Positions 38,351 to 47,269 of a stretch of DNA of 64,000 bases are shown here, in pieces; positions within the stretch are counted from its first letter, which is position 1, and the number at the start of each line of letters is the position of its first letter. Position numbers and translations under genes: made by a program. Location of the stretch: contig CAVVHS010000008.1 in the NCBI GenBank assembly GCA_963748215.1, positions 96,001-160,000 on the forward strand, written 5' to 3'. This DNA is from an uncultured Gammaproteobacteria bacterium (lineage in GTDB: Bacteria; Pseudomonadota; Gammaproteobacteria; UBA9214). The notes under the pieces were generated by a model. That model did no database searches, was not told the DNA's origin, and saw nothing but the letters and a program-made list of their open reading frames with translations.

Positions 38351-40078
38351 TTATCGGCCGGTCGCGCGTTTCAGCAGCGGCCTGAGTTGCCGAAGCGTGC
38401 GGCTGTTGAGCACGTCCTGTTTTTCCAGCCAGCCGCGCCGCGCCTGCCCCACGCCGTAGGCGAGGTTCGCGAAATCCCGGGTACTGTGGGCATCGGAATT
38501 CACCGCGACGAGCACCCCTTCATCCCGCGCCATCTGGCAATACACATCCAGCAGATCGAGTCGCTCCGGGTGCGCGTTGAGTTCCAGGAAACAGCCGCGT
38601 TCGCGCGCCTTGCGGATGACCTTGAGCATGTCGATGTCATACGGCTCGCGACTTTCGAGCAAGCGGCCGGTTGGATGCGCAAGCAGGGTAAAATGCGGAC
38701 GGTCCATGGCACGCAGGATGCGGTCCGTCTGTTCTGCGCGTGACAGTGTGAAGTTGCTGTGCACTGCCCCGATCACCAGGTCCAGTTCACCGAGCACGTC
38801 ATCGGGCAGGTCGAGCCGTCCGTCTTCCAGGATGTCGACCTCCACGCCCTTGAGCAGCGTGATGCCGTCGAGCTCCTCATTCAGTCGATCGATCTCGTGC
38901 ATCTGCTTGCGCAGTCGCTTCGGATCGAGACCGTGCGCAACCGTAAGCCGGCGTGAATGTTCCGTGATCGCGAGGTAGCCGAGGCCGTAGTGCTGTGCGG
39001 CCTGTGCCATCTCGCGCAGGCTGTTATGTCCGTCAGTGGTCGTGGTGTGCGCGTGCAGGTCGCCCCTGAGATCGGCCAGCGTCACCAGCTTCGGCAACTT
39101 GCCGGCACGCGCCGCCTCGAGTTCGCCACGGTTTTCGCGCAGCTCCGGATCGATCCACGGCAGGCCCACGCTGCGATAGACCGATTTCTCGGTCGCGCCA
39201 GCCGTGCGGCGCTTGCCCCGGAACACACCGTATTCACTGATCTTGAGCTTGCGCTCCTGCGCCAGCCGACGCAGTGCGATGTTGTGCTCGCGCGAACCGG
39301 TGAAGTAAAGCAAGGCCGCGCCAAAACAGTTTTCCTCTACGACGCGCACATCCACCTGCAGCCCGGACCTGAGCATCAGCGTGGCGCGCGTGGGGCCGCT
39401 GGCGAGCACCTTTTCGACCTCCTCGTACAAAACCACACGGTCCATGACCCCGGCGGCTTCCGCGGTGACCAGGATGTCGAGGTCACCGACTGTCTCGCGA
39501 GCGCGGCGATAGCTGCCGGCCAGCACGACCTGTTTCACACCGGGGATCCGCTGCAGCCAGGCCTGCAACGGTTCGGCATACTGCGCGGCCACGGCCAGTT
39601 TGAAGCGCGGCTGTTCCGCAACCTGCCTGGACACCGCCTCCAGTATGACCTGCTCGGTCCTGGCACCGAAGCCGGGCAGCTCGCGAATACGCCCGTCACG
39701 CGCGGCACGCGCCAGCTGCTCAAGCGTATGGACGTCAAGCTCGTGATACAGCGTGCTCACGCGTTTCGGACCGAGACCGCGAATCTTCAGCAACCCGGTG
39801 ACGGAATGCGGAACCTGCCGGTGCAGCTTGTCGAGCATCCGGCACTTGCCCGTCCCGGCAATTTCCTCGATGCGAGCGGCGAGATCGGTGCCGATAGCAG
39901 GCAGTTCGGTCAGGTCATCCCCCCTGGCCAGCATGTCCGCCACCGCCTCGCCCATGCCCTGCAACTGGCGCGCGGCATTACGATAGGCACGCACCCGGAA
40001 CGGGTTTTCATTCTGGATCTCGAGCAGGTCGGCGATTTCCACGAATACGGCGGCAATGTCGGCGTTATGAACGGACAT
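38351..40078 (-). CDS. polX: DNA polymerase X with PHP domain (PolX)
   Basis: ENPFRVRAY, AGSYRR..ETVGDLDIL, QVDVR and YFTGS; PHP motifs DLHAHT, TEHS, AHPTGR and NSDAH; AGGAG RBS. Confidence 0.95.
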   Translation of the reverse strand: MSVHNADIAAVFVEIADLLEIQNENPFRVRAYRNAARQLQGMGEAVADMLARGDDLTELPAIGTDLAARIEEIAGTGKCRMLDKLHRQVPHSVTGLLKIRGLGPKRVSTLYHELDVHTLEQLARAARDGRIRELPGFGARTEQVILEAVSRQVAEQPRFKLAVAAQYAEPLQAWLQRIPGVKQVVLAGSYRRARETVGDLDILVTAEAAGVMDRVVLYEEVEKVLASGPTRATLMLRSGLQVDVRVVEENCFGAALLYFTGSREHNIALRRLAQERKLKISEYGVFRGKRRTAGATEKSVYRSVGLPWIDPELRENRGELEAARAGKLPKLVTLADLRGDLHAHTTTTDGHNSLREMAQAAQHYGLGYLAITEHSRRLTVAHGLDPKRLRKQMHEIDRLNEELDGITLLKGVEVDILEDGRLDLPDDVLGELDLVIGAVHSNFTLSRAEQTDRILRAMDRPHFTLLAHPTGRLLESREPYDIDMLKVIRKARERGCFLELNAHPERLDLLDVYCQMARDEGVLVAVNSDAHSTRDFANLAYGVGQARRGWLEKQDVLNSRTLRQLRPLLKRATGR

Positions 40079-40086
40079 GCTCCTAG

Positions 40087-40326
40087 CCCGCATTTCTCAC
40101 CGGGATCCCGGATGCTGGCGCAGGGCTCGCATGTCCGGACGCCGCTCTGGAATGAAAGAGGTAGCCGTAGCTACCACTTGAGTGAAGAGCAAGTACGGGC
40201 ATGCGAGAACCAGCCAGGGCCGGGATAGGCGGTGGCCGATAACACACTGTTTGTTGGCGAATGGGTATTAGCTTCATGGTTTCAGCTCATTATGTCGGAT
40301 AACAGCCGCCCGGTGAGAAATGCGGG
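40087..40326. mobile_element. 240-bp non-coding MITE-like element with 18-bp perfect terminal inverted repeats, flanked by CTAG
   Basis: CCCGCATTTCTCACCGGG (40087-40104) and CCCGGTGAGAAATGCGGG (40309-40326); CTAG at 40083-40086 and 40327-40330. Confidence 0.8.
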
Positions 40327-41757
40327 CTAGCCCTTGATACAGACCAGCGGCTCCAGCCGCGCCACCTTGCGCGCCAGGCCGGCGGCATCGGCCGCATCCA
40401 CCACGGAGCCGACGTCCTTGTACGCGCCCGGCGCCTCCTCGGCCACGCCGCGTCCCGACGGACTGCGGATCAGGATGCCGCGCGCGGCCAGCTCGTCGAT
40501 GACCTGGCGACCGTGCCAGGTCTTGTGGGCCTGGTGACGGCTCATGGCGCGCCCGGCGCCGTGACAGGCGGAACTCCAGGACAGGGCCTCGCCGGCACTG
40601 GTGCCGGCCAGGACATAGGACGCGGTCCCCATCGAGCCGCCGATCAGCACCGGCTGACCCGTGGCGCGCAATGCATCGGGCAGATCGGCATGACCGGGAC
40701 CGAAGGCACGCGTGGCACCCTTGCGGTGCACGTGAAGCAGGCGGGGTTCGCCGGCCACGACATGTTGCTCGACCTTGCAGGTGTTGTGCGACACGTCGTA
40801 CAGCAGCGTCAGCTCTGCCTCCGGCAGCACCCGCGCGAAGACATTGCGCACCAGATGGGTGAGAATCTGCCGGTTGGCCAGCGCGCAGTTGATCCCGGCA
40901 CGCATCGCGCCGAGGTATTCCTCACCGATGGGGGAATCGATCGGCGCGCAGGCCAGTTCACGGTCCGGCAACGTGATGCCGTACTGCGCGGCAGCGATAA
41001 CCATGCGTTTCAGGAACTCGGTGCCGATCTGGTGTCCCAGGCCACGCGAGCCGCAATGGATGCTGACCACCACCTCGTTCTCGCGCAATCCCATAACCTG
41101 TGCCGCCCCGGCGTCGAACACCTGAACGACCTTCTGCACTTCTAGATAGTGATTGCCGCTGCCCAGCGTGCCCATTTCGTCACGCTGGCGCCGCTTGGCG
41201 TGGTCGGATACGCAACCCGGCCTGGCACCGGCCATGCGGCCGCGCTCCTCGGTGCGCTCCAGGTCGGCATCACACCCATAGCCCTGCTGTACCGCCCACT
41301 GTGCACCTCCCAGCAGCATGGCGTTCATACTCGCGGAATTCAGGTGGATCGTGCCGCTGCTGCCGAGACCGGCGGGAATGTCGCGATACAGACTGTCGGC
41401 CAGTGTTTTCTGCACCGCCATGACAGCGTCGGCCTGCAACCCGGTCAGCAGGCATCGTACGCCGCAGGAAATGTCGAAGCCGACGCCGCCGGCCGAGACC
41501 ACGCCGCCGTCGCCGGCATCGAAGGCGGCCACGCCGCCGATGGGAAAACCGTAACCCCAGTGCGCGTCGGGCATGGCATAGGATGCCTGCACGATGCCGG
41601 GCAGCATGGCCACGTTGCAGACCTGCTCGTAGACCTTGAGATCCATGTCGCGGATCAGGGTCTCGTCCGCGTAGATCAGCGCCGGCACGCGCATGGCGCC
41701 GTGCGGGGCGATCTGCCAGGCATATTCGGTATGACGGTTGAACAGCGATATATCCAT
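40327..41757 (-). CDS. rtcB: RtcB RNA ligase (archaeal-type, archease-associated)
   Basis: MPDAHWGYGFPIGGV, GFDISCGVR, GTLGSGNHYLE, HCGSRG, SHN, HRKGATR, HGAGR and EEAPGAYK. Confidence 0.97.
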   Translation of the reverse strand: MDISLFNRHTEYAWQIAPHGAMRVPALIYADETLIRDMDLKVYEQVCNVAMLPGIVQASYAMPDAHWGYGFPIGGVAAFDAGDGGVVSAGGVGFDISCGVRCLLTGLQADAVMAVQKTLADSLYRDIPAGLGSSGTIHLNSASMNAMLLGGAQWAVQQGYGCDADLERTEERGRMAGARPGCVSDHAKRRQRDEMGTLGSGNHYLEVQKVVQVFDAGAAQVMGLRENEVVVSIHCGSRGLGHQIGTEFLKRMVIAAAQYGITLPDRELACAPIDSPIGEEYLGAMRAGINCALANRQILTHLVRNVFARVLPEAELTLLYDVSHNTCKVEQHVVAGEPRLLHVHRKGATRAFGPGHADLPDALRATGQPVLIGGSMGTASYVLAGTSAGEALSWSSACHGAGRAMSRHQAHKTWHGRQVIDELAARGILIRSPSGRGVAEEAPGAYKDVGSVVDAADAAGLARKVARLEPLVCIKG

Positions 41758-41814: not shown

Positions 41815-42237
41815 TCAGACATCCACCACGCATTGCGCGACCCAGCTGCCATCCGCTTCCTGCGCCACGCGCAAGGCGGTGTAGGTTGCACCCTTGACCT
41901 CGACCGCCGGGCGATGCCGTGCGCTGTCCAGTGCTTCGCCCCAGGCACGCGCCGTGAGCACCTCGCCGCTGATGTGCACGTCGTAGCGCGCGAACAGCCA
42001 GTGGCGTGTGGCCATTTCGTACAGCAGCGCGTTGAGCCAGTCCACCAGCAGCAATTCGTCATCCGGCGCCTGGCAACTGATCCTGACCATACCACCAGCG
42101 GAAATCCCGGTCGGCTCGGTAATCACGGCGGACAGGGCAACGGCCGCCTGCTCGAATGCCTGCTCCCGGGTCGCGCCGTAACCGCGTACCCCGATATCCG
42201 CACCGTGCGGGAAATGCTCCCAGCGCGCAAGCTGCAT
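41815..42237 (-). CDS. Archease
   Basis: [29 protein letters not shown] and C-terminal VVDV. Confidence 0.95.
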
Positions 42238-42474
42238 GGTCAGCAGCAAATCCGCGGCAGTCCTGCGCGGCTGCATGCACAACGGCGAACCCCATCGGTA
42301 TCACGGCTTGCATTTCCACACATGGTAAATATATAGCACCGTTACCGGCACAGAGACATGACGACCGTCAATCCCGCCCCACTACCACCGGCAGGCATCA
42401 CGCAACCGGCCACGCGAGCCGGCAGAATCGCAGTCAGGGCACCGGACAAGCACATCCAGACCGCTGCGCCCGGG

Positions 42475-43233
42475 TTACTCAACGGGGCCGGGCAGCGGCA
42501 TGCTGATGGCCGCGACCAGGCGCTCGGCACGCTCGAAGTGGCTGCCCTTCCAGTAGATCTGCCCGCATTCTGTACAGCGCCGGAATTCCTCATAGTATTT
42601 GCGCGTCTTTGGCTGCAGTTCGGCCACGACCGCCTGCTTGTCGACGATTTCCAGCACACCGTTACAACGCGTGCAGCGGGTAAAGGGTCTGACCAGGCTA
42701 TACAGGTCCAGCCTGGCGAGCACCTCCCTCACCTGCGTGCGGGGCTGATCGGCGCGCACGAAATACCCATGCGTAATGATCCGCTGCTGCAGCAGGGCAC
42801 GGTCGCGGGTCAGCACGATGCGCGACTCCTCGACCGAAATCCGCGCGATCTCGATGTCTGTCAGGTCGTTCCCGTAGCGACTGTCGAATCCCAGCAGGCG
42901 CAGATAGCGCGCCAGCCGCCCGAGATTGACGTCGACGACGAAGCGTGGTGTGCGCAGTGGTGCGGGGCGCAGGCGGATGACCGGGCTGATATCCATACCC
43001 TCGAAGACCGGATAGACGCTGATACGGTCTCCTGCATTGACGATATAGGAAAAATCGACGGATTCGCCGTTGACCAGGATCAGGTCCACCTCGGTATGCG
43101 GCACGCCGAACGATTCGATCATGTCCTTGATCGAAGTGCGCCGGTTGCAGGCATGTACGATGTCGCTCCTGCGCAAGGCGGGCGCGAGGAAATCGTTCAG
43201 CTCCGCGTAAAAACGCAGGGTTACCTCGGCCAT
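42475..43233 (-). CDS. Mut7-C RNase with an N-terminal ubiquitin-like domain
   Basis: RFYAELNDFL and IESFGVPHTEV (Ub); FVVDVNLGRLARYLRLLGFD, LTRD and a CxxC..CxxC..YWKGSH zinc ribbon. Confidence 0.93.
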   Translation of the reverse strand: MAEVTLRFYAELNDFLAPALRRSDIVHACNRRTSIKDMIESFGVPHTEVDLILVNGESVDFSYIVNAGDRISVYPVFEGMDISPVIRLRPAPLRTPRFVVDVNLGRLARYLRLLGFDSRYGNDLTDIEIARISVEESRIVLTRDRALLQQRIITHGYFVRADQPRTQVREVLARLDLYSLVRPFTRCTRCNGVLEIVDKQAVVAELQPKTRKYYEEFRRCTECGQIYWKGSHFERAERLVAAISMPLPGPVE

Positions 43234-43288: not shown

Positions 43289-44444
43289 TCACAGCTCGTT
43301 GAGTTCCACGGACGGATTGTTGAACAGCTTGCGCCTGACCTCGTCAAAATAATCAGGAAGATAGCGATCCCGGATCCGGACCGGCAGCCGGTCGAGTCGC
43401 GGGAAAGGCAACGCCGGGTAGGTGAACAGGAATTCCATCAGGAAACCGACATTCTGTGCCAGCTGCCCGCAATAGCGCGGATTATGGCGCTGCCTGATGA
43501 TCCGCTCCTCGTGCATGCAGCGACCTATCTCGCTCTCCAGCATCTCCAGATAGCTGGTGACGATGATTTCCAGGTTGATGCTTTCCTCGCCGGACTGCAC
43601 GAATTCCCGGAACGCCGCGTTTGCCTGGCCAGGCGTGTAACCATGCGCGCCGAACACCTGCAGCATCCTGTCATGCAGTGGCTCGGCAAGAACTTTGTCC
43701 TTGTCCGGGTGGTAGCCGACGACCAGGTTGGTGGCCCGGTAGTTTCCGTCATGGCGCTCCTGTTCAATCAGCGTACAGCCGCCATCCTGCAGCAGCGATG
43801 TCAGCCGCTCCAGTTCGTGCGTCTCCAGGATCACCTTGAGTCCCGCGACATCGTTGATGGCCTGGCCGTCCGGCAACTGTATGGCGGGATTATCGTGCAG
43901 CAGCACCAGCAGTCGCTGCTCAGCCTGCTGCAGTGCCTCCGGTGCCGCCTCCTGCTGCCACACACCGCCTGCCGATTCCGTGCCGCCACCCATATATAGC
44001 CAGTCCACCAGACGGCGCGCGGTCTTTTCCGCCAGGCGCCGAATGCGCTTGATGCGGCTGGACCCTGACATAGCAGGCGTCACCCTGCCCGTCATGGAAA
44101 TACAGGGTGCCGTGAAACGGCGTGTCGCGAAAATAATGGCCGGGATCACCTGCGTAGGCGGTGGCCAGTTCCGCGCAGCGGGCACAGTGTGACGGCAGGA
44201 TCCTGCTGATCCGGTCCCGGAGTGCACCCTTGGTCGCAACTGTCTCCATGCGCAGAGCTGTACCGTGCAGGCCGGCAAAAAGATCTGCGGAAAAACGGCC
44301 AAGACAGCGTGTAACATAAACATTGTTGAAGTGCACCAGGCGCAGGATTTCATCCACATCACCGGGTTGCAGTGTGTCGCGCATCCAGCGCCGAATCACG
44401 TCACTGAGGCGGTCGCGGTGCAGGAAACTGTTGATACGGATCAT
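43289..44444 (-). CDS. Hypothetical protein of about 384 aa with divergent RelA/SpoT synthetase-like motifs; one extra base at about 44066
   Basis: The joined ORFs give, in order, RIKRIRRLAEK, NDVAGLKVI, GNYRATN and EIIVTSYLEMLESEIGRCMH. Confidence 0.65.
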
Positions 44445-45049
44445 GCGGCAGTCATCCGGCGCCAGACGGTAGCCGGCCACAGCGTGTCGTTACAACACCG
44501 TACATTTTGCGCGATCATATACAGCTGCATAAACCATACCTCGCTCGCTTTTCAAACCGGCCTGCTGTTTTGCGGCGATCAACACGATCCCTGCGGGTAC
44601 GCTGTGGCCAGGCGGGTTTGGAACGCTGATTCATCACCCTGCCATGCCGGCTGAATGTCGTCGATCACCTACATTCAGATTTGCATCCTGTGTAAGCCGG
44701 TGATTTCAATGACATCGCAAGTGTATCTGAAACACGACACAGGCGTGCGCACACGTCGATCGGCAATCTTTGCCCGATTTGTGCACAACAAATAAACATA
44801 CAAAACAGCAGACTGCGAATTCTGTGCGAGCGTTTTGCATTCAGCGGCCACTCCGGTCATAACGTCTTCATCCCATCGTCGCGGCCGGCCCGACTGCAAT
44901 TCCGTTGTGACCTGCGCACGGTTTCACGCCTGCCGTACTAAAGCTTTCTACCCGTTGTTTGCTGAAACCCCTTTATTTACTGTATTTGCGCACACACTCC
45001 AGAGCCGGACAAACCGGAACGCCATGCCGACCCCGTGCGCATTTTTTAC

Positions 45050-45065
45050 TGGCACGGACTTTGCA
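45050..45065 (+). promoter_or_regulatory. Sigma54 -24/-12 promoter
   Basis: TGGCAC-GGACT-TTGCA is a perfect consensus match about 85 bp upstream of the ATG at 45149. Confidence 0.82.
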
Positions 45066-45148: not shown

Positions 45149-47269
45149 ATGCTGAAACGATTTCTGGTTTTCCCGTTCGCTCGATTTCTTTTTCTTGCAT
45201 TCATCGCCGCACAATTGTCCGCCTGTGGTGGCGGATCCGGCACTGATACCGCATCCGTTACAGCCACAACCAGCAGCGTCGCCGATGTCACAGATAATGT
45301 CATGCTGGCTGGCAGTGTCGGCGACGGACCCGTCACCGGTGCCACCGTGGAGATATGGAGCACGCAGGGCCGCCTGATCGGCTCCATGAAAAGCGATAAT
45401 ACGGCGTCCTTCAATTCCAGCATCCGCGTCAGACGCTCGAGTTATCCGTTGTTGCTGAAAGTCAGGGGCGGTATCGATCTGGTGACAGGCAGTGCACCGG
45501 ATTTCCAGCTGGTCTCTGTGATGCCTGACCGGCACACGCGGCAGGTCAATATCAATCCCTTCTCGACCCTGATTGTCGGCATCACGCAGTCAATGCCGGG
45601 GGGTATTAATGCGAACAATATTCGTGCCGCACGGAAAATCGTGACAGACAAACTGGGTTTCGGCCTGGATCCGGACGTGATTGCCGACCCGATCAGCACA
45701 AGGATCACGGATCGCAACATTGCCAACCTGGTGAAGGCAAGCGAGGCCATGGGTGAGATGGTACGCCGTACCCGTGACCTGATCGCGACCACCGGCAGGA
45801 AGACCAGCGGTGATGCGGTACTGGCCGCAATTGCCGTGGACCTGCAGGATGGCAGCCTGGACGGACAGGGAACCCGGAACAGTGACCCGGACATCAGCGC
45901 CGTGGCGAAGGTGGTTTCCGGACAGGTACTGGTGGAAGCGCTGGCCAATACTCTGAAAGTCGGAGGCATTATCGCCACGCCTGTCATTGACCAGTCCATT
46001 GAAGCCACCCGTCCCGGCATCAGCAGCGACAATCTGACACAATCTGTACGCATTACCGATGGTATGCTGGAGCAAACGCGGACAGCGCTGGCAGCGGCCC
46101 GGGCCGTGGATTCCAGTGCCGAGGTCGCAGCAATCGAGTCCATCGTCAGCAAAATCAGTGCCGGCACAATGCCCGCAAATATCGCGACTGTCCTGCCCGC
46201 AGATGCTTCGCGTACGCTGGATAACGCCGTACTGCTGTCCTCGACGGCTGACGAAACACAACTCGCCGCTGTCAATGCAACTGGTGTACAGACAGGCAGT
46301 GACAATCACCCCCCCGCAGTACCGCTCCCGACAGAACCGGTGACGACAGCCCCTGTCACGACTGCACCGATAACGACTGACCCGTCCACCACCGGGGTTT
46401 CGTCACGCAGGACCTGGTCACACAGGACCTCATCACGCAGGACCTCATCACGGACGCCGGTTACGACTGAAACCGTCGCGACTGAACAGGTTGCGGCTGA
46501 ACCTGTCACGACAACTCCGGTCGCGACTGAACCGGTTGCGACCAAACCTGTCACGACAACTCCGGTCACGACTGAACCGGTTGCGGCTGAACCTGTCACG
46601 ACAACTCCGGTCACGACTGAACCGGTTGCGGCTGAACCTGTCACGACAACTCCGGTCACGACTGAACCGGTCACAAGCGACCCGGCAACAACCGGCCCGG
46701 TCACTACCGTACCCGTCAACAACGCCCCGGTGATCAGTGGTTCTCCCTCACGCTCGGTGACAGCCGGCACCGCCTACAGCTTCCAGCCGGTCGCCAGCGA
46801 TAGCGACCGGGACACCCTGAGCTTCAGTATCATCGGCAAGCCGGCCTGGGCCAGCTTCAATACCGCAACCGGGCGCCTCAGTGGCACACCGGGCGACAGT
46901 GACGCGGGAACCTACAGCAATATTGTGATCGCAGTGACCGACAGGACCGACACCGCGAGTCTGCAGGCATTCACCATCAGTGTCGTTCCGGCGCAGAATA
47001 CGGTTGGCAGTTTCAACCTGAGCTGGACAGCGCCTGTCGCGCGCGCCGATGGCACGCCGCTGTCGCTGGTGGATATCGGTGGCTATCGCATTTATTACGG
47101 CACCTCATCAGGCAACTATCCCGACACAATCGATGTCAGTGATGGCAGTGCGCAATCGGCGACTGTGAACAATCTTCCGGTCGGGACCTATCATATTGTG
47201 ATGACGACATATGACAGCAATGGACTGGAGAGCGCCAGATCCGCGGAGGTGGCGAAAGTCGCCCGGTAA
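45149..47269 (+). CDS. Large lipoprotein: unknown N-terminal domain, Pro/Thr/Val repeat stalk, putative Ig (He_PIG-like) domain and FnIII-like domain
   Basis: Lipobox LSAC-GGGS; NNAPVISGSP..YSFQP.ASDSD.DTLSFSI..KPAWASFNTATGRLSGTP; LSWTAP..ADGTPL. Confidence 0.82.
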   Translation: MLKRFLVFPFARFLFLAFIAAQLSACGGGSGTDTASVTATTSSVADVTDNVMLAGSVGDGPVTGATVEIWSTQGRLIGSMKSDNTASFNSSIRVRRSSYPLLLKVRGGIDLVTGSAPDFQLVSVMPDRHTRQVNINPFSTLIVGITQSMPGGINANNIRAARKIVTDKLGFGLDPDVIADPISTRITDRNIANLVKASEAMGEMVRRTRDLIATTGRKTSGDAVLAAIAVDLQDGSLDGQGTRNSDPDISAVAKVVSGQVLVEALANTLKVGGIIATPVIDQSIEATRPGISSDNLTQSVRITDGMLEQTRTALAAARAVDSSAEVAAIESIVSKISAGTMPANIATVLPADASRTLDNAVLLSSTADETQLAAVNATGVQTGSDNHPPAVPLPTEPVTTAPVTTAPITTDPSTTGVSSRRTWSHRTSSRRTSSRTPVTTETVATEQVAAEPVTTTPVATEPVATKPVTTTPVTTEPVAAEPVTTTPVTTEPVAAEPVTTTPVTTEPVTSDPATTGPVTTVPVNNAPVISGSPSRSVTAGTAYSFQPVASDSDRDTLSFSIIGKPAWASFNTATGRLSGTPGDSDAGTYSNIVIAVTDRTDTASLQAFTISVVPAQNTVGSFNLSWTAPVARADGTPLSLVDIGGYRIYYGTSSGNYPDTIDVSDGSAQSATVNNLPVGTYHIVMTTYDSNGLESARSAEVAKVAR
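46457..46680 (+). repeat. 15-bp subunit, 45-bp higher-order tandem repeat (PVTTE-PVAAE-PVTTT)
   Basis: CCGGTCACGACTGAACCGGTTGCGGCTGAACCTGTCACGACAACT recurs. Confidence 0.9.

What the first reader, a model, noticed from the sequence alone, without database searches (positions are those of the whole stretch)
43289..44444. Hidden divergent RelA/SpoT-synthetase-fold protein at the head of an RNA-repair cluster
Seen: removing one base at about 44066 joins two anonymous ORFs into a protein of about 384 aa. It carries four motifs in RSH synthetase order: RIKRIRRLAEK (cf. RxKxxxSxxxK), NDVAGLKVI (cf. DIAGIRII), GNYRATN (cf. NGYRSLH) and EIIVTSYLEMLESEIGRCMH. The last has the same E-x12-E-x-G-x3-H spacing as Rel EVQIRT...AExGVAAH. 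Likely catalytic acidic and basic residues are kept, while acceptor-side residues differ (H to N, Q to I, R to T). Known: some toxSAS enzymes (FaRel2, CapRel) pyrophosphorylate tRNA 3' ends instead of making (p)ppGpp. Inference: this may be an unrecognised RSH-like pyrophospho- or nucleotidyl-transferase with a non-GTP, possibly RNA, acceptor.
Basis: partly seen in the sequence, partly recalled or inferred. Interest (0 to 1): 0.85.

Follow-up and report, generated by a model that had tools for sequence, protein, structure and literature searches.

The report
Divergent RelA/SpoT-like enzyme, split by artefact
The two anonymous reading frames are one conserved gene for an unannotated, very divergent relative of the enzymes that make the bacterial stress signal ppGpp; the break is most likely an assembly error, and the link to RNA-repair genes holds only in one small group of relatives.

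Summary
Observation confirmed. On the minus strand, 44444-44067 and 44065-43289 are two halves of one 384-aa gene. The window has exactly one extra base compared with its nearest relative. All 5 contigs from 4 public runs that cross the site lack a base there, so the split is probably an assembly artefact.

The product belongs to a small, sequence-isolated family: 152 representatives among 1.84 billion proteins. It has no Pfam, NCBIfam, PADLOC or PDB sequence match.

A confident AlphaFold model (pLDDT 87) has small alarmone synthetases as its best PDB matches. They take the top 5 places for the full-length model and the top 9 for the core. Tas1 is the best viral match. Five RSH synthetase motifs occur in the right order and with the right internal spacing, and they are nearly invariant in the family. 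Profile comparison with RelA/SpoT domains is not significant.

The residues at the guanine/acceptor positions differ, so the acceptor is unknown. The RtcB/archease/Mut7-C neighbourhood occurs only in one subclade of one genus (4 of 80 loci). Elsewhere the gene stands alone, so an RNA acceptor is possible but unsupported. The scan had already found this family on other DNA.

The parts
44067..44444 (-). N-terminal part of the gene (residues 1-126, frame A): about 105 aa of N-terminal helical domain plus the first hairpin strand
   Evidence: Translation. Identical to P0001 residues 1-125. D29, K72 and P109 are invariant in 43 diverse homologues.
44066..44068 (-). Site of the single extra base that splits the gene
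   Evidence: The only indel against L006. All 5 contigs from 4 runs that cross it lack a base at 44066 or 44068.
43289..44065 (-). C-terminal part (residues 127-384 plus stop, frame B): the RSH-like catalytic core and a conserved C-terminal helical region
   Evidence: Translation. 100% identical to P0001. The core-only model gives SAS as the top 9 PDB matches.
44024..44056 (-). Motif 1, RIKRIRRLAEK (R130, K132, R136, K140): strand 1 plus helix, with the same i, i+2, i+10 spacing as RxKxxxSxxxK of RelA/SpoT
   Evidence: R130, K132, R136 and K140 are 113/113 and 42-43/43. The RSH counterpart R43, K45, S49, K53 comes from alignment A2.
43835..43855 (-). Motif 2, NDVAGLK (D198, G201, K203): the single carboxylate on strand 2, matching D-x-x-G/A-x-R of RSH
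   Evidence: D198 and G201 are 113/113 and 43/43. K203 is 113/113 and 41/43.
43727..43765 (-). Motif 3, EQERHDGNYRATN: G-loop-like hairpin with Y235. The RSH residues K, N, S and H are replaced by H231, G233, A237 and N239
   Evidence: The RSH consensus PKxNGYQSLHT comes from A2.
43511..43570 (-). Motifs 4 and 5, EIIVTSYLEMLESEIGRCMH: E292 on strand 5, then E305-x-G307-x3-H311 in the following helix. The E-to-H distance is 19, as in RelA/SpoT
   Evidence: This is the only stretch that hhalign aligned to EVQIRT...AELGVAAH, and not significantly.
42475..43233 (-). Downstream neighbour: Ub-Mut7C plus Mut7-C RNase, 55 bp after the stop
   Evidence: Pfam PF14451 at 1.3e-35 and PF01927 at 7.7e-49.
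41815..42282 (-). Archease
   Evidence: Pfam PF01951 at 6.6e-38.
40327..41757 (-). RtcB RNA ligase
   Evidence: Pfam PF01139 at 1.2e-166.
38351..40093 (-). PolX-PHP polymerase, last gene of the co-oriented run
   Evidence: Pfam HHH_8, DNA_pol_B_thumb, DNA_pol_B_palm and PHP.

Best explanation
In nature this is an intact gene for a 384-aa member of a small, sequence-orphan protein family. The catalytic core of the family is a very divergent version of the RelA/SpoT (RSH) synthetase domain, which belongs to the Pol-beta-like superfamily. The core runs as follows. Strand 1 and a helix carry R130-x-K132-x3-R136-x3-K140. Strand 2 carries the single carboxylate D198 (D-x-x-G-x-K). A hairpin carries Y235. 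Strand 5 carries E292. A helix carries E305-x-G-x3-H311. Two helical insertions of about 45 and 41 residues interrupt the core. An N-terminal domain of about 105 aa precedes it and a conserved C-terminal helical region follows it.

Shown here: the gene is one unit, it is conserved, it has this predicted fold, and these residues are nearly invariant.

Inferred: it binds ATP-Mg as RSH synthetases do and transfers the beta,gamma-pyrophosphate to a hydroxyl of a second substrate. That substrate is probably not GDP or GTP, because the RSH residues at the acceptor side (K, N, S, H of the G-loop; Q and R of ExQxRT) are replaced by other, family-conserved residues. Whether the acceptor is a nucleotide or an RNA 3' end is open.

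The one-base break in the window is most likely a consensus error made where two co-existing alleles differ. The position in front of Ub-Mut7-C, archease, RtcB and PolX is a recent, lineage-specific arrangement.
For: One gene: P0001 reads through. There is a single indel against L006. 79 of 80 related loci hold an open frame of at least 340 aa.

Artefact: 5 of 5 contigs in 4 runs lack a base at the site. A 3011-nt contig of X1 spans the whole 901 nt with 2 other letters and 1 gap. X3 holds both alleles.

Fold: the full-length model has pLDDT 87.1 and pTM 0.88. PDB ranks 1-5 are SAS1/RelQ and RelP (E 2.5e-3 to 9.4e-2, prob 0.63-1.00), followed by TdT and Pol mu. The best BFVD match is Tas1 (E 2.9e-3, prob 0.93), and RelA/SpoT entries stand at ranks 12 and 14. 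For the core-only model, ranks 1-9 are all SAS; Rel of M. tuberculosis is at rank 14 and FaRel/FaRel2 at ranks 18-19.

Motifs: conservation counts are, and the RSH reference motifs were derived here from 28 RelA/SpoT domains. A composite five-motif pattern hits 3 of 7850 open frames of at least 150 aa in the genome: the two canonical RSH genes and this one. It hits 0 in three rounds of shuffling.

Leads: the nearest named Atlas clusters carry PF04607 in 15% of members, with scores 0.86-0.89. JGI names one homologue, P0071, 'ppGpp synthetase/RelA/SpoT-type nucleotidyltranferase'.

No DxD: strand 2 reads I-N-D-V-A, with one carboxylate as in RSH.
Against: No sequence method links the family to RSH.
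- PF04607 matched 0 of 113 members at E<=10 and 0 of 10 divergent members at E<=1.
- A genome-wide PF04607 search rang only at the canonical RSH genes, both in the own genome and in 5 genomes that hold family members.
- A family profile found no RSH chain in PDB sequences at E<=10.
- hhalign against RelA/SpoT domains gave Prob 0.25% and 0.5%, with E 0.24 and 0.11.
- A profile search of 1.84 billion proteins found only 152 hits at E<=0.001. Of the listed hits I scanned only 10 divergent members, none matched PF04607, and the number is far too small to include canonical RSHs.

No Foldseek match reaches E<=0.001. TM-scores are low (at most 0.43 by target length) and rmsd is large. The core-only model is less confident (pLDDT 76.9).

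The five-motif pattern was written after seeing both families, so its specificity is partly circular. No tool here can show activity, the donor or the acceptor. Logan contigs drop rare variants, and one run may be the source sample, so a real minority frameshift allele is not excluded.
Confidence: 0.6

Rival explanations
1. The enzyme acts on RNA ends as part of the Mut7-C/archease/RtcB/PolX system. For example, it might pyrophosphorylate or phosphorylate RNA 3'-OH ends, as the tRNA-targeting toxSAS enzymes do, and so feed or gate RtcB ligation.
For: The five genes are co-oriented, and 55 bp separate this gene from Ub-Mut7C. The order RSH-like, Mut7C, archease, RtcB is kept in 6 other same-genus loci with gaps of about 50-90 bp. 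In one relative, G048, both the RSH-like gene and the only RtcB are degraded. toxSAS enzymes pyrophosphorylate the tRNA 3'-CCA end (abstracts listed). FaRel/FaRel2 appear among the fold matches at ranks 18-19. In 7 other loci a GidB+SpoU rRNA methyltransferase gene overlaps the start of the family member.
Against: Only 4 of 80 family loci have Mut7C, archease or RtcB within 8 kb, and all 4 are close relatives. Within the genus, 12 loci have Mut7C without this gene, and there archease-RtcB lie at another locus. The link is therefore one recent rearrangement. A terminator-like hairpin lies between Mut7C and archease, although the number of such sites is at chance level. No paper in the library holds both 'alarmone synthetase' and 'RtcB', or both 'Mut7-C' and 'RtcB'.
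Confidence: 0.15
2. It is an ordinary alarmone synthetase that makes (p)ppGpp or (p)ppApp. On this reading it is simply too divergent for the Pfam model.
For: The best structural matches are (p)ppGpp-making SAS enzymes and the (p)ppApp-making Tas1. The ATP-side motifs and the stacking Tyr are kept. The gene stands alone among housekeeping genes, as a metabolic or regulatory enzyme would. A guanylate-kinase-like gene lies divergently next to it in 8 loci.
Against: The positions that are invariant in 28 RelA/SpoT domains (K106, N108, S112, H114, Q128, R130 of A2) are replaced by H231, G233, A237, N239, I294 and S/T296, which are conserved within the family. All 6 genomes checked already have 1-2 canonical RSH genes.
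Confidence: 0.2
3. It is a Pol-beta-fold nucleotidyltransferase that adds NMP to RNA 3' ends, like RlaP, rather than a pyrophosphokinase.
For: Pol mu, TdT and Pol lambda palm domains follow the SAS matches. G127-S128 before strand 1 recalls the G[GS] of nucleotidyltransferases. RlaP (PF10127) is a ligase-associated Pol-beta enzyme that adds 1-2 NMP to damaged RNA (abstract of PMC12776372).
Against: There is no PF10127 match. Strand 2 carries one carboxylate (N-D-V-A) and not DxD. The RSH-type R-x-K...K, Y and E-x-G-x3-H motifs are all present. SAS rank above the polymerases in all three fold searches.
Confidence: 0.1
4. In this strain the gene really is a frameshifted pseudogene. On this reading the family is dispensable here, whatever its fold.
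For: The window and its whole-genome assembly both carry the break. The gene is accessory in the genus: 3 of 24 other genomes match, and one of them is clearly decayed.
Against: 5 of 5 public contigs that cross the site are intact, including one about 99.7% identical over 901 nt. Apart from the single base there is no other indel, and both halves are free of stops. The inserted base sits exactly where two alleles differ.
Confidence: 0.15
5. The resemblance to RSH is fortuitous. On this reading the protein has another fold or is not an enzyme.
For: All profile-based tests are negative. Foldseek E-values are only 1e-2 to 1e-3 and TM-scores are low.
Against: Three fold searches in two libraries put RSH-fold proteins first. 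Five motifs in the right order sit on the matching secondary-structure elements and are nearly invariant. The motif pattern is specific within the genome.
Confidence: 0.08

Closest known systems
Small alarmone synthetases RelQ/SAS1 and RelP/SAS2 (PDB 5dec, 5f2v, 6ex0, 6fgj, 6fgx, 6ewz, 2be3); Pfam PF04607 RelA_SpoT
   Same: They are the best structural matches. The order of strands and helices is the same. So is the internal spacing of R-x-K-x7-K, D-x-x-G-x-[RK], the Tyr hairpin, and the strand-5 Glu with E-x-G-x3-H 13-19 residues later.
   Different: There is no detectable sequence-profile similarity. The protein is about twice the size. It has an extra N-terminal domain of about 105 aa, two helical insertions (between motifs 1 and 2, and between motifs 3 and 4) and a conserved C-terminal extension. 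The acceptor-side residues K, N, S, H, Q and R are replaced.
toxSAS toxins FaRel2, CapRel and PhRel2 (tRNA 3'-CCA pyrophosphokinases), FaRel and Tas1 ((p)ppApp synthetases)
   Same: They share the RSH synthetase fold. Tas1 is the best BFVD match, and FaRel/FaRel2 are at PDB ranks 18-19. They are the precedent for non-guanine and RNA acceptors (abstracts).
   Different: No conserved adjacent antitoxin-like gene was found in 80 loci. There is no PADLOC match. The gene sits among housekeeping genes. Toxicity was not tested.
RlaP (PF10127), the RNA-ligase-associated Pol-beta nucleotidyltransferase
   Same: It is a Pol-beta-superfamily enzyme encoded next to RNA ligase genes (abstract and introduction of PMC12776372).
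   Different: There is no PF10127 match and no DxD. The association with a ligase is limited to one subclade.
Earlier finds of this scan: e1-5123870 (399 aa) and e1-5260881 (398 aa, Syntrophaceae)
   Same: This is the same family, and earlier agents read it the same way: a divergent RelA/SpoT-like pyrophosphokinase with an unknown acceptor.
   Different: Those copies are stand-alone and intact. This one is split in the assembly and sits in front of Ub-Mut7C, archease, RtcB and PolX.

Membership tests
RelA/SpoT (RSH) synthetase domain, PF04607 | Match to the PF04607 profile at or above its curated cut-off | tested here: not met
   0 of 113 members at E<=10. 0 of 10 divergent members at E<=1. 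The genome-wide search rang only at the 2 canonical RSH genes of G000 and only at canonical genes in 5 other genomes that hold family members.
RelA/SpoT (RSH) synthetase domain, PF04607 | Profile-profile similarity to RelA/SpoT synthetase domains | tested here: not met
   hhalign of A1 and A4 against A2 (28 long-RSH domains) gave Prob 0.25% and 0.5%, with E 0.24 and 0.11. The only aligned stretch was motif 4/5. Templates of the SAS type were not tried.
RelA/SpoT (RSH) synthetase domain, PF04607 | RSH synthetase fold (mixed sheet with flanking helices) | tested here: met
   SAS take ranks 1-5 (full-length model) and 1-9 (core model) in the PDB, with prob up to 1.00. Tas1 is first in BFVD. Caveat: the best E-value is 2.5e-3, TM by target is at most 0.43, and I had no residue-level superposition.
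RelA/SpoT (RSH) synthetase domain, PF04607 | ATP/Mg-side residues: R-x-K-x3-S-x3-K, the D of D-x-x-G-x-R, the E of E-x-Q-x-R-T, and E-x-G-x3-H | tested here: met
   R130, K132, K140, D198, G201, E292, E305, G307 and H311 are 113/113 and 41-43/43. S is replaced by R136 and R by K203. The reference motifs come from A2.
RelA/SpoT (RSH) synthetase domain, PF04607 | Guanine-nucleotide acceptor residues (K, N, S, H around the G-loop Tyr; Q and R of ExQxRT) | tested here: not met
   Only Y235 is kept. H231, G233, A237, N239, I294 and S/T296 stand at the other positions. N239 is His in 9 of 43. The roles of these residues in RSH enzymes are recalled, not tested here.
RelA/SpoT (RSH) synthetase domain, PF04607 | Pyrophosphoryl transfer from ATP | not testable with these tools
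   This needs an enzyme assay.
toxSAS toxin-antitoxin modules | A conserved adjacent antitoxin gene, or a fused antitoxin domain | tested here: not met
   No same-strand neighbour of at least 40 aa within 200 bp is shared beyond single lineages. The largest real cluster covers 11 of 80 loci and is a fumarase subunit. There is no PADLOC match.
toxSAS toxin-antitoxin modules | Growth inhibition on expression | not testable with these tools
   This needs an expression test in a laboratory strain.
RlaP (PF10127) | Match to PF10127, and the Pol-beta G[GS] ... DxD signature | tested here: not met
   There is no Pfam match. Strand 2 has the single carboxylate D198, with A200 at i+2.
Rtc/RtcB RNA-repair operon component | Conserved genomic linkage to RtcB across the family | tested here: not met
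   4 of 80 loci, all within one genus subclade. In the sister subclade, archease-RtcB lie elsewhere.

The most novel reading that the evidence does not exclude
The family may be a new branch of RSH-fold pyrophosphokinases whose acceptor is neither GDP/GTP nor ADP/ATP. It could make an undescribed signalling nucleotide. In the window's lineage it could instead put a (pyro)phosphate on RNA 3'-OH ends, so that ends left by a metal-dependent RNase such as Mut7-C become substrates for the 3'-phosphate ligase RtcB. That would be an end-healing step not yet known for RtcB pathways.
Probability: 0.12. Interest if true: 0.85.

Novelty: new variant of a known kind. Interest (0 to 1): 0.55.

Why it matters
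RSH enzymes control the bacterial stringent response. Recently they were found to act as toxins that modify tRNA ends or make ppApp. This family keeps the ATP-side chemistry but has a rebuilt acceptor side, and every profile library tried here misses it. It therefore marks an RSH-type activity that annotation overlooks in sulfur-cycling, syntrophic and sulfate-reducing bacteria. Identifying its product could add a new alarmone or a new RNA-end modification.

The finding also carries a practical lesson. The split ORF is probably a consensus error at a site where two strains differ, so 'hidden pseudogene' calls in metagenome-assembled genomes need a check against reads.

Tried and rejected
Pfam, NCBIfam, PADLOC and PHROGs scans of the protein and its homologues gave nothing relevant. 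A family profile against PDB sequences gave only chance hits with E>1. hhalign against 28 RelA/SpoT domains was not significant. I did not build an SAS-type template alignment, which might do better.

The profile search of 1.84 billion representatives did not bridge to RSH families. The core-only model did not improve the Foldseek statistics. The sigma-70 promoter scan found 0 sites. Terminator-like sites are at chance level, with 5 found against 4.2 expected. No sigma54 box lies upstream of the gene on its own strand.

A programmed frameshift was considered and rejected. Relatives and public contigs simply lack the base, and no slippery site is conserved.

I did not run complex prediction, because I do not claim that these proteins bind.

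Burroughs & Aravind 2016, the RNA-repair survey cited in PMC12776372, is not held. I could not check whether it mentions this family or the Mut7-C/RtcB link. Supplements were not consulted. Literature searches found no description of this family. None of them could search by sequence, so this is weak evidence that the family is not in print.

The count (40 of 41 genomes with PF04607) includes the unpublished genome G039. L103 also dropped out of A2 because my script found no motif-bearing frame in it. In one search, L077 was dropped because its frame has only 247 aa. In one search the greedy ORF caller kept the family gene in only 61 of 80 loci, because antisense frames won elsewhere, so the neighbour counts there are approximate.
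Full report
**Observation.** On the minus strand the window holds two overlapping open frames. One (43920-44480) reads sensibly only up to ...GDACYV at 44067. The other (43289-44362) reads sensibly only from GSSRIKR at 44065. A search with the C-terminal 259 residues found 587 proteins at E<=0.001. Nearly all are 370-405 aa long and called 'hypothetical'. The best is P0001, 384 aa and 100% identical, which reads ...GDACYAGSSRIKR... without a break. A DNA alignment with the nearest species-level relative (L006, 91% nt identity) shows exactly one indel in 1156 nt: one extra base in the window at 44066-44068. The four quoted motifs lie at 44056-44024, 43855-43835, 43765-43727 and 43570-43511.

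**Is the break real?** The whole-genome assembly that contains the window has the same break. I then laid the contigs of four public metagenome runs from two studies on 43600-44500. Every contig crossing the site lacks one base. The base missing is 44068 in X1 (depth 10.4 of 10.4), X2 (10.7 of 10.7), X4 (12.2 of 12.2) and part of X3 (17.8 of 30.3). In the rest of X3 (12.5 of 30.3) it is 44066, together with A>G at 44070. The first form encodes Tyr-Ala-Gly, as in P0001. The second encodes Tyr-Val-Gly, as in L006 and L003. On the minus strand the window reads TAT GTCA GGG, against TAT GCA GGG and TAC GTC GGG. This looks like a consensus that merged two alleles aligned with staggered gaps, and X3 shows that both alleles live in one sample. 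My inference is that the frameshift is an assembly or polishing artefact. Two caveats apply: contigs drop rare variants, and one run may be the source sample. A programmed frameshift is unlikely, since relatives simply lack the base. Of 80 related loci, 79 hold an open frame of at least 340 aa.

**The family.** It is small and isolated. A profile of the core domain found only 152 representatives at E<=0.001 among 1.84 billion proteins clustered at 50% identity, many of them fragments. 155 stretches in the species-representative genome collection encode a relative. Their records are labelled Gammaproteobacteria (including Thiocapsa), Syntrophales/Syntrophaceae, Desulfobacterales and Myxococcota. 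No member matched any Pfam model meaningfully (0 of 113 for PF04607 at E<=10; 0 of 10 divergent members). There was no NCBIfam, PADLOC or PHROGs family and no PDB sequence match. JGI labels one homologue 'ppGpp synthetase/RelA/SpoT-type nucleotidyltranferase'. The earlier notes of this scan show that the same family was found twice before on other DNA and read the same way. I treat that as a lead and not as support.

**Fold.** AlphaFold2 with 113 homologues gave a confident single-globule model, with pLDDT 87.1 and pTM 0.88. Against the PDB, ranks 1-5 are small alarmone synthetases: B. subtilis SAS1 (5dec, 5f2v) and S. aureus RelP (6ex0, 6fgj). Their E-values run from 2.5e-3 to 9.4e-2 and their probabilities from 0.63 to 1.00. 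TdT and Pol mu follow. Against viral models the best match is a phage 'Tas1' (E 2.9e-3, prob 0.93), and entries named RelA/SpoT stand at ranks 12 and 14. A second model of the core alone (L006 residues about 103-348, 79 sequences, pLDDT 76.9) gave SAS chains at ranks 1-9, Rel of M. tuberculosis at rank 14 and FaRel/FaRel2 at ranks 18-19. No match reaches E<=0.001 and TM-scores are low (at most 0.43), partly because of two long insertions. The rank signal is nevertheless consistent over three searches in two libraries. The nearest named clusters by protein-language-model features carry PF04607 in 15% of their members, with scores 0.86-0.89. These are leads only.

**Motifs.** To avoid relying on memory I derived the RSH motifs from 28 RelA/SpoT synthetase domains taken from genomes of the same class. 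They are G-R-x-K-x3-S-x3-K, D-x-x-A/G-x-R, P-K-x-N-G-Y-x-S-x-H-T, E-V-Q-I-R-T, and A-E-x-G-x-A-A-H 19 residues after the Glu. The family has the following counterparts:
- R130-x-K132-x3-R136-x3-K140 on predicted strand 1 and its helix.
- D198-x-x-G201-x-K203 on strand 2.
- H231-x-G233-x-Y235-x-A237-x-N239 on the hairpin of strands 3 and 4.
- E292 on strand 5.
- E305-x-G307-x3-H311 in the next helix, again 19 residues after the Glu.

In 113 close homologues R130, K132, R136, K140, D198, G201, K203, E292, E305, G307 and H311 are all 113/113, and Y235 is 111/113. In 43 representatives down to 20% identity the counts are D198 43/43, G201 43/43, K132 43/43, R136 43/43, R130 42/43, K140 42/43, E292 41/43 (plus 2 Asp), Y235 39/43 (plus 2 Phe) and H311 42/43. 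A composite pattern of the five motifs hits 3 of 7850 open frames of at least 150 aa in the organism's genome: its two canonical RSH genes and this frame. It hits none in three rounds of shuffling. The pattern was written after seeing both families, so this shows specificity but is not an independent discovery.

The only stretch that hhalign aligned between the family and the RelA/SpoT domains is LEIIVS...SEIGRCMH against EVQIRT...AELGVAAH, at non-significant scores (Prob 0.25% and 0.5%). Neither occurred.

**What differs from RSH.** The family adds an N-terminal domain of about 105 aa, in which D29, K72 and P109 are invariant. It adds insertions of about 45 residues between motifs 1 and 2 and about 41 residues between motifs 3 and 4. 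It also adds a strongly conserved C-terminal region. The positions that are invariant in RelA/SpoT around the stacking Tyr and in ExQxRT (K, N, S, H, Q, R) are replaced by other residues that are conserved within the family. From recalled knowledge of RSH structures, those positions contact the guanine nucleotide acceptor. The natural inference is a conserved ATP/Mg site with a different acceptor. Strand 2 has a single carboxylate (I-N-D-V-A), as in RSH and unlike the DxD of classical Pol-beta nucleotidyltransferases. This favours pyrophosphoryl over nucleotidyl transfer, but only an assay can decide.

**Context.** In the window the gene is followed on the same strand by four genes:
- Ub-Mut7C/Mut7-C RNase, after a 55-bp gap.
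- Archease.
- RtcB.
- PolX-PHP.

Among 80 loci from other species, only the four closest (64-92% identity) have Mut7C, archease or RtcB within 8 kb. The other 76 have lineage-specific housekeeping neighbours and no shared partner or small antitoxin-like ORF. These neighbours include fumarase subunits, a D-Ala-D-Ala carboxypeptidase, a radical-SAM protein, PDZ proteins, a guanylate-kinase-like gene, and a fused GidB+SpoU methyltransferase that overlaps the start in 7 loci.

Within the window's genus, Mut7C is nearly universal (32 of 37 genomes). The RSH-like gene was found in only 3 of 24 other genomes searched with P0001, and one of those copies is decayed. In 7 of 20 Mut7C loci the RSH-like gene lies directly upstream, and archease and RtcB lie downstream in the six of these loci that reach that far. 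In 12 loci, whose Mut7C is about 68-70% identical, none of the three is adjacent. One locus is too short to tell. In three genomes of that second group archease-RtcB lie at another locus. In one genome of that group a PolX-like stretch follows Mut7C directly. The five-gene run is therefore a recent assembly in one subclade. One detail speaks weakly for a functional tie: in G048 both the RSH-like gene (fragments with three stops) and the only RtcB (N-terminal part missing) are degraded. The gene's G+C content (60.2%) matches that of the window (60.9%). All six genomes checked also have canonical long RSH genes.

**Mechanism and verdict.** The most likely reading (about 0.6) is an intact, divergent RSH-fold enzyme that uses ATP-Mg through the conserved R/K cluster, D198 and E292, and transfers pyrophosphate to a non-guanine acceptor. 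The steps from fold to chemistry are inferred. A role on RNA ends with Mut7-C and RtcB is possible (about 0.15) but rests on one lineage-specific arrangement. The other rivals are ordinary (p)ppGpp or (p)ppApp synthesis (about 0.2), nucleotidyl transfer (about 0.1), a true pseudogene in this strain (about 0.15, independent of the others) and chance resemblance (about 0.08).

Relative to what is known, this is a new variant of a known kind. It is not a member of PF04607 by that family's own test, but it is built and probably works like an RSH synthetase. No paper in the library links alarmone synthetases or Mut7-C with RtcB. I could not read the key survey, Burroughs & Aravind 2016.

Noticed in passing
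Same-genus genome G048: L115-L117, L124; G048:C3:97863-100730: The RSH-like gene survives only as fragments with three stops. The genome's only RtcB match lacks roughly its first 230-280 residues. Mut7C and archease between them still read open. This may be joint decay of the two genes.
   Followed up: partly
L126-L137, L145-L148 (same-genus genomes): The genus splits into two arrangements. In one, RSH-like, Mut7C, archease, RtcB and PolX lie together. In the other, a PolX-like stretch follows Mut7C directly (seen in one genome), and archease-RtcB lie at a distant locus (seen in three). Archease-RtcB therefore seem to have been inserted between Mut7C and PolX.
   Followed up: partly
window 45050-45064 (+): A perfect match to the sigma54 -24/-12 consensus (TGGCAC-N5-TTGC) lies about 85 bp upstream of the lipoprotein-like gene at 45149-47269 (He_PIG domain). 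Matches across the whole window are at chance level.
   Followed up: no
window 44066-44070; run X3: Two alleles of the gene (Tyr-Ala-Gly and Tyr-Val-Gly at the junction) co-occur in one metagenome run at depths 17.8 and 12.5 of 30.3. Closely related strains therefore coexist there.
   Followed up: partly
L021:2198-3736 and 6 other loci: A 512-aa fusion of GidB (RsmG) and SpoU rRNA methyltransferase domains ends about 13 nt inside the start of the family member, on the same strand, in 7 loci whose listed records (L021, L028, L031) are labelled delta proteobacterium or Desulfobacterales.
   Followed up: no
window 40160-40175 (-) and 42336-42351 (-): Terminator-like hairpins lie in the rtcB-polX spacer and in the Mut7C-archease gap. 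The number of such sites in the region is at chance level.
   Followed up: no
L024 (2378-nt contig binned as Methanoregula): A family member 44% identical to the query sits on a short contig assigned to an archaeal bin. All other carriers are bacteria, so mis-binning is likely.
   Followed up: no
G003:C18:18580-18915: A 367-aa open frame in another genome of the same class gives a weaker PF04607 match (6e-18). It may be a small alarmone synthetase. I did not use it.
   Followed up: no
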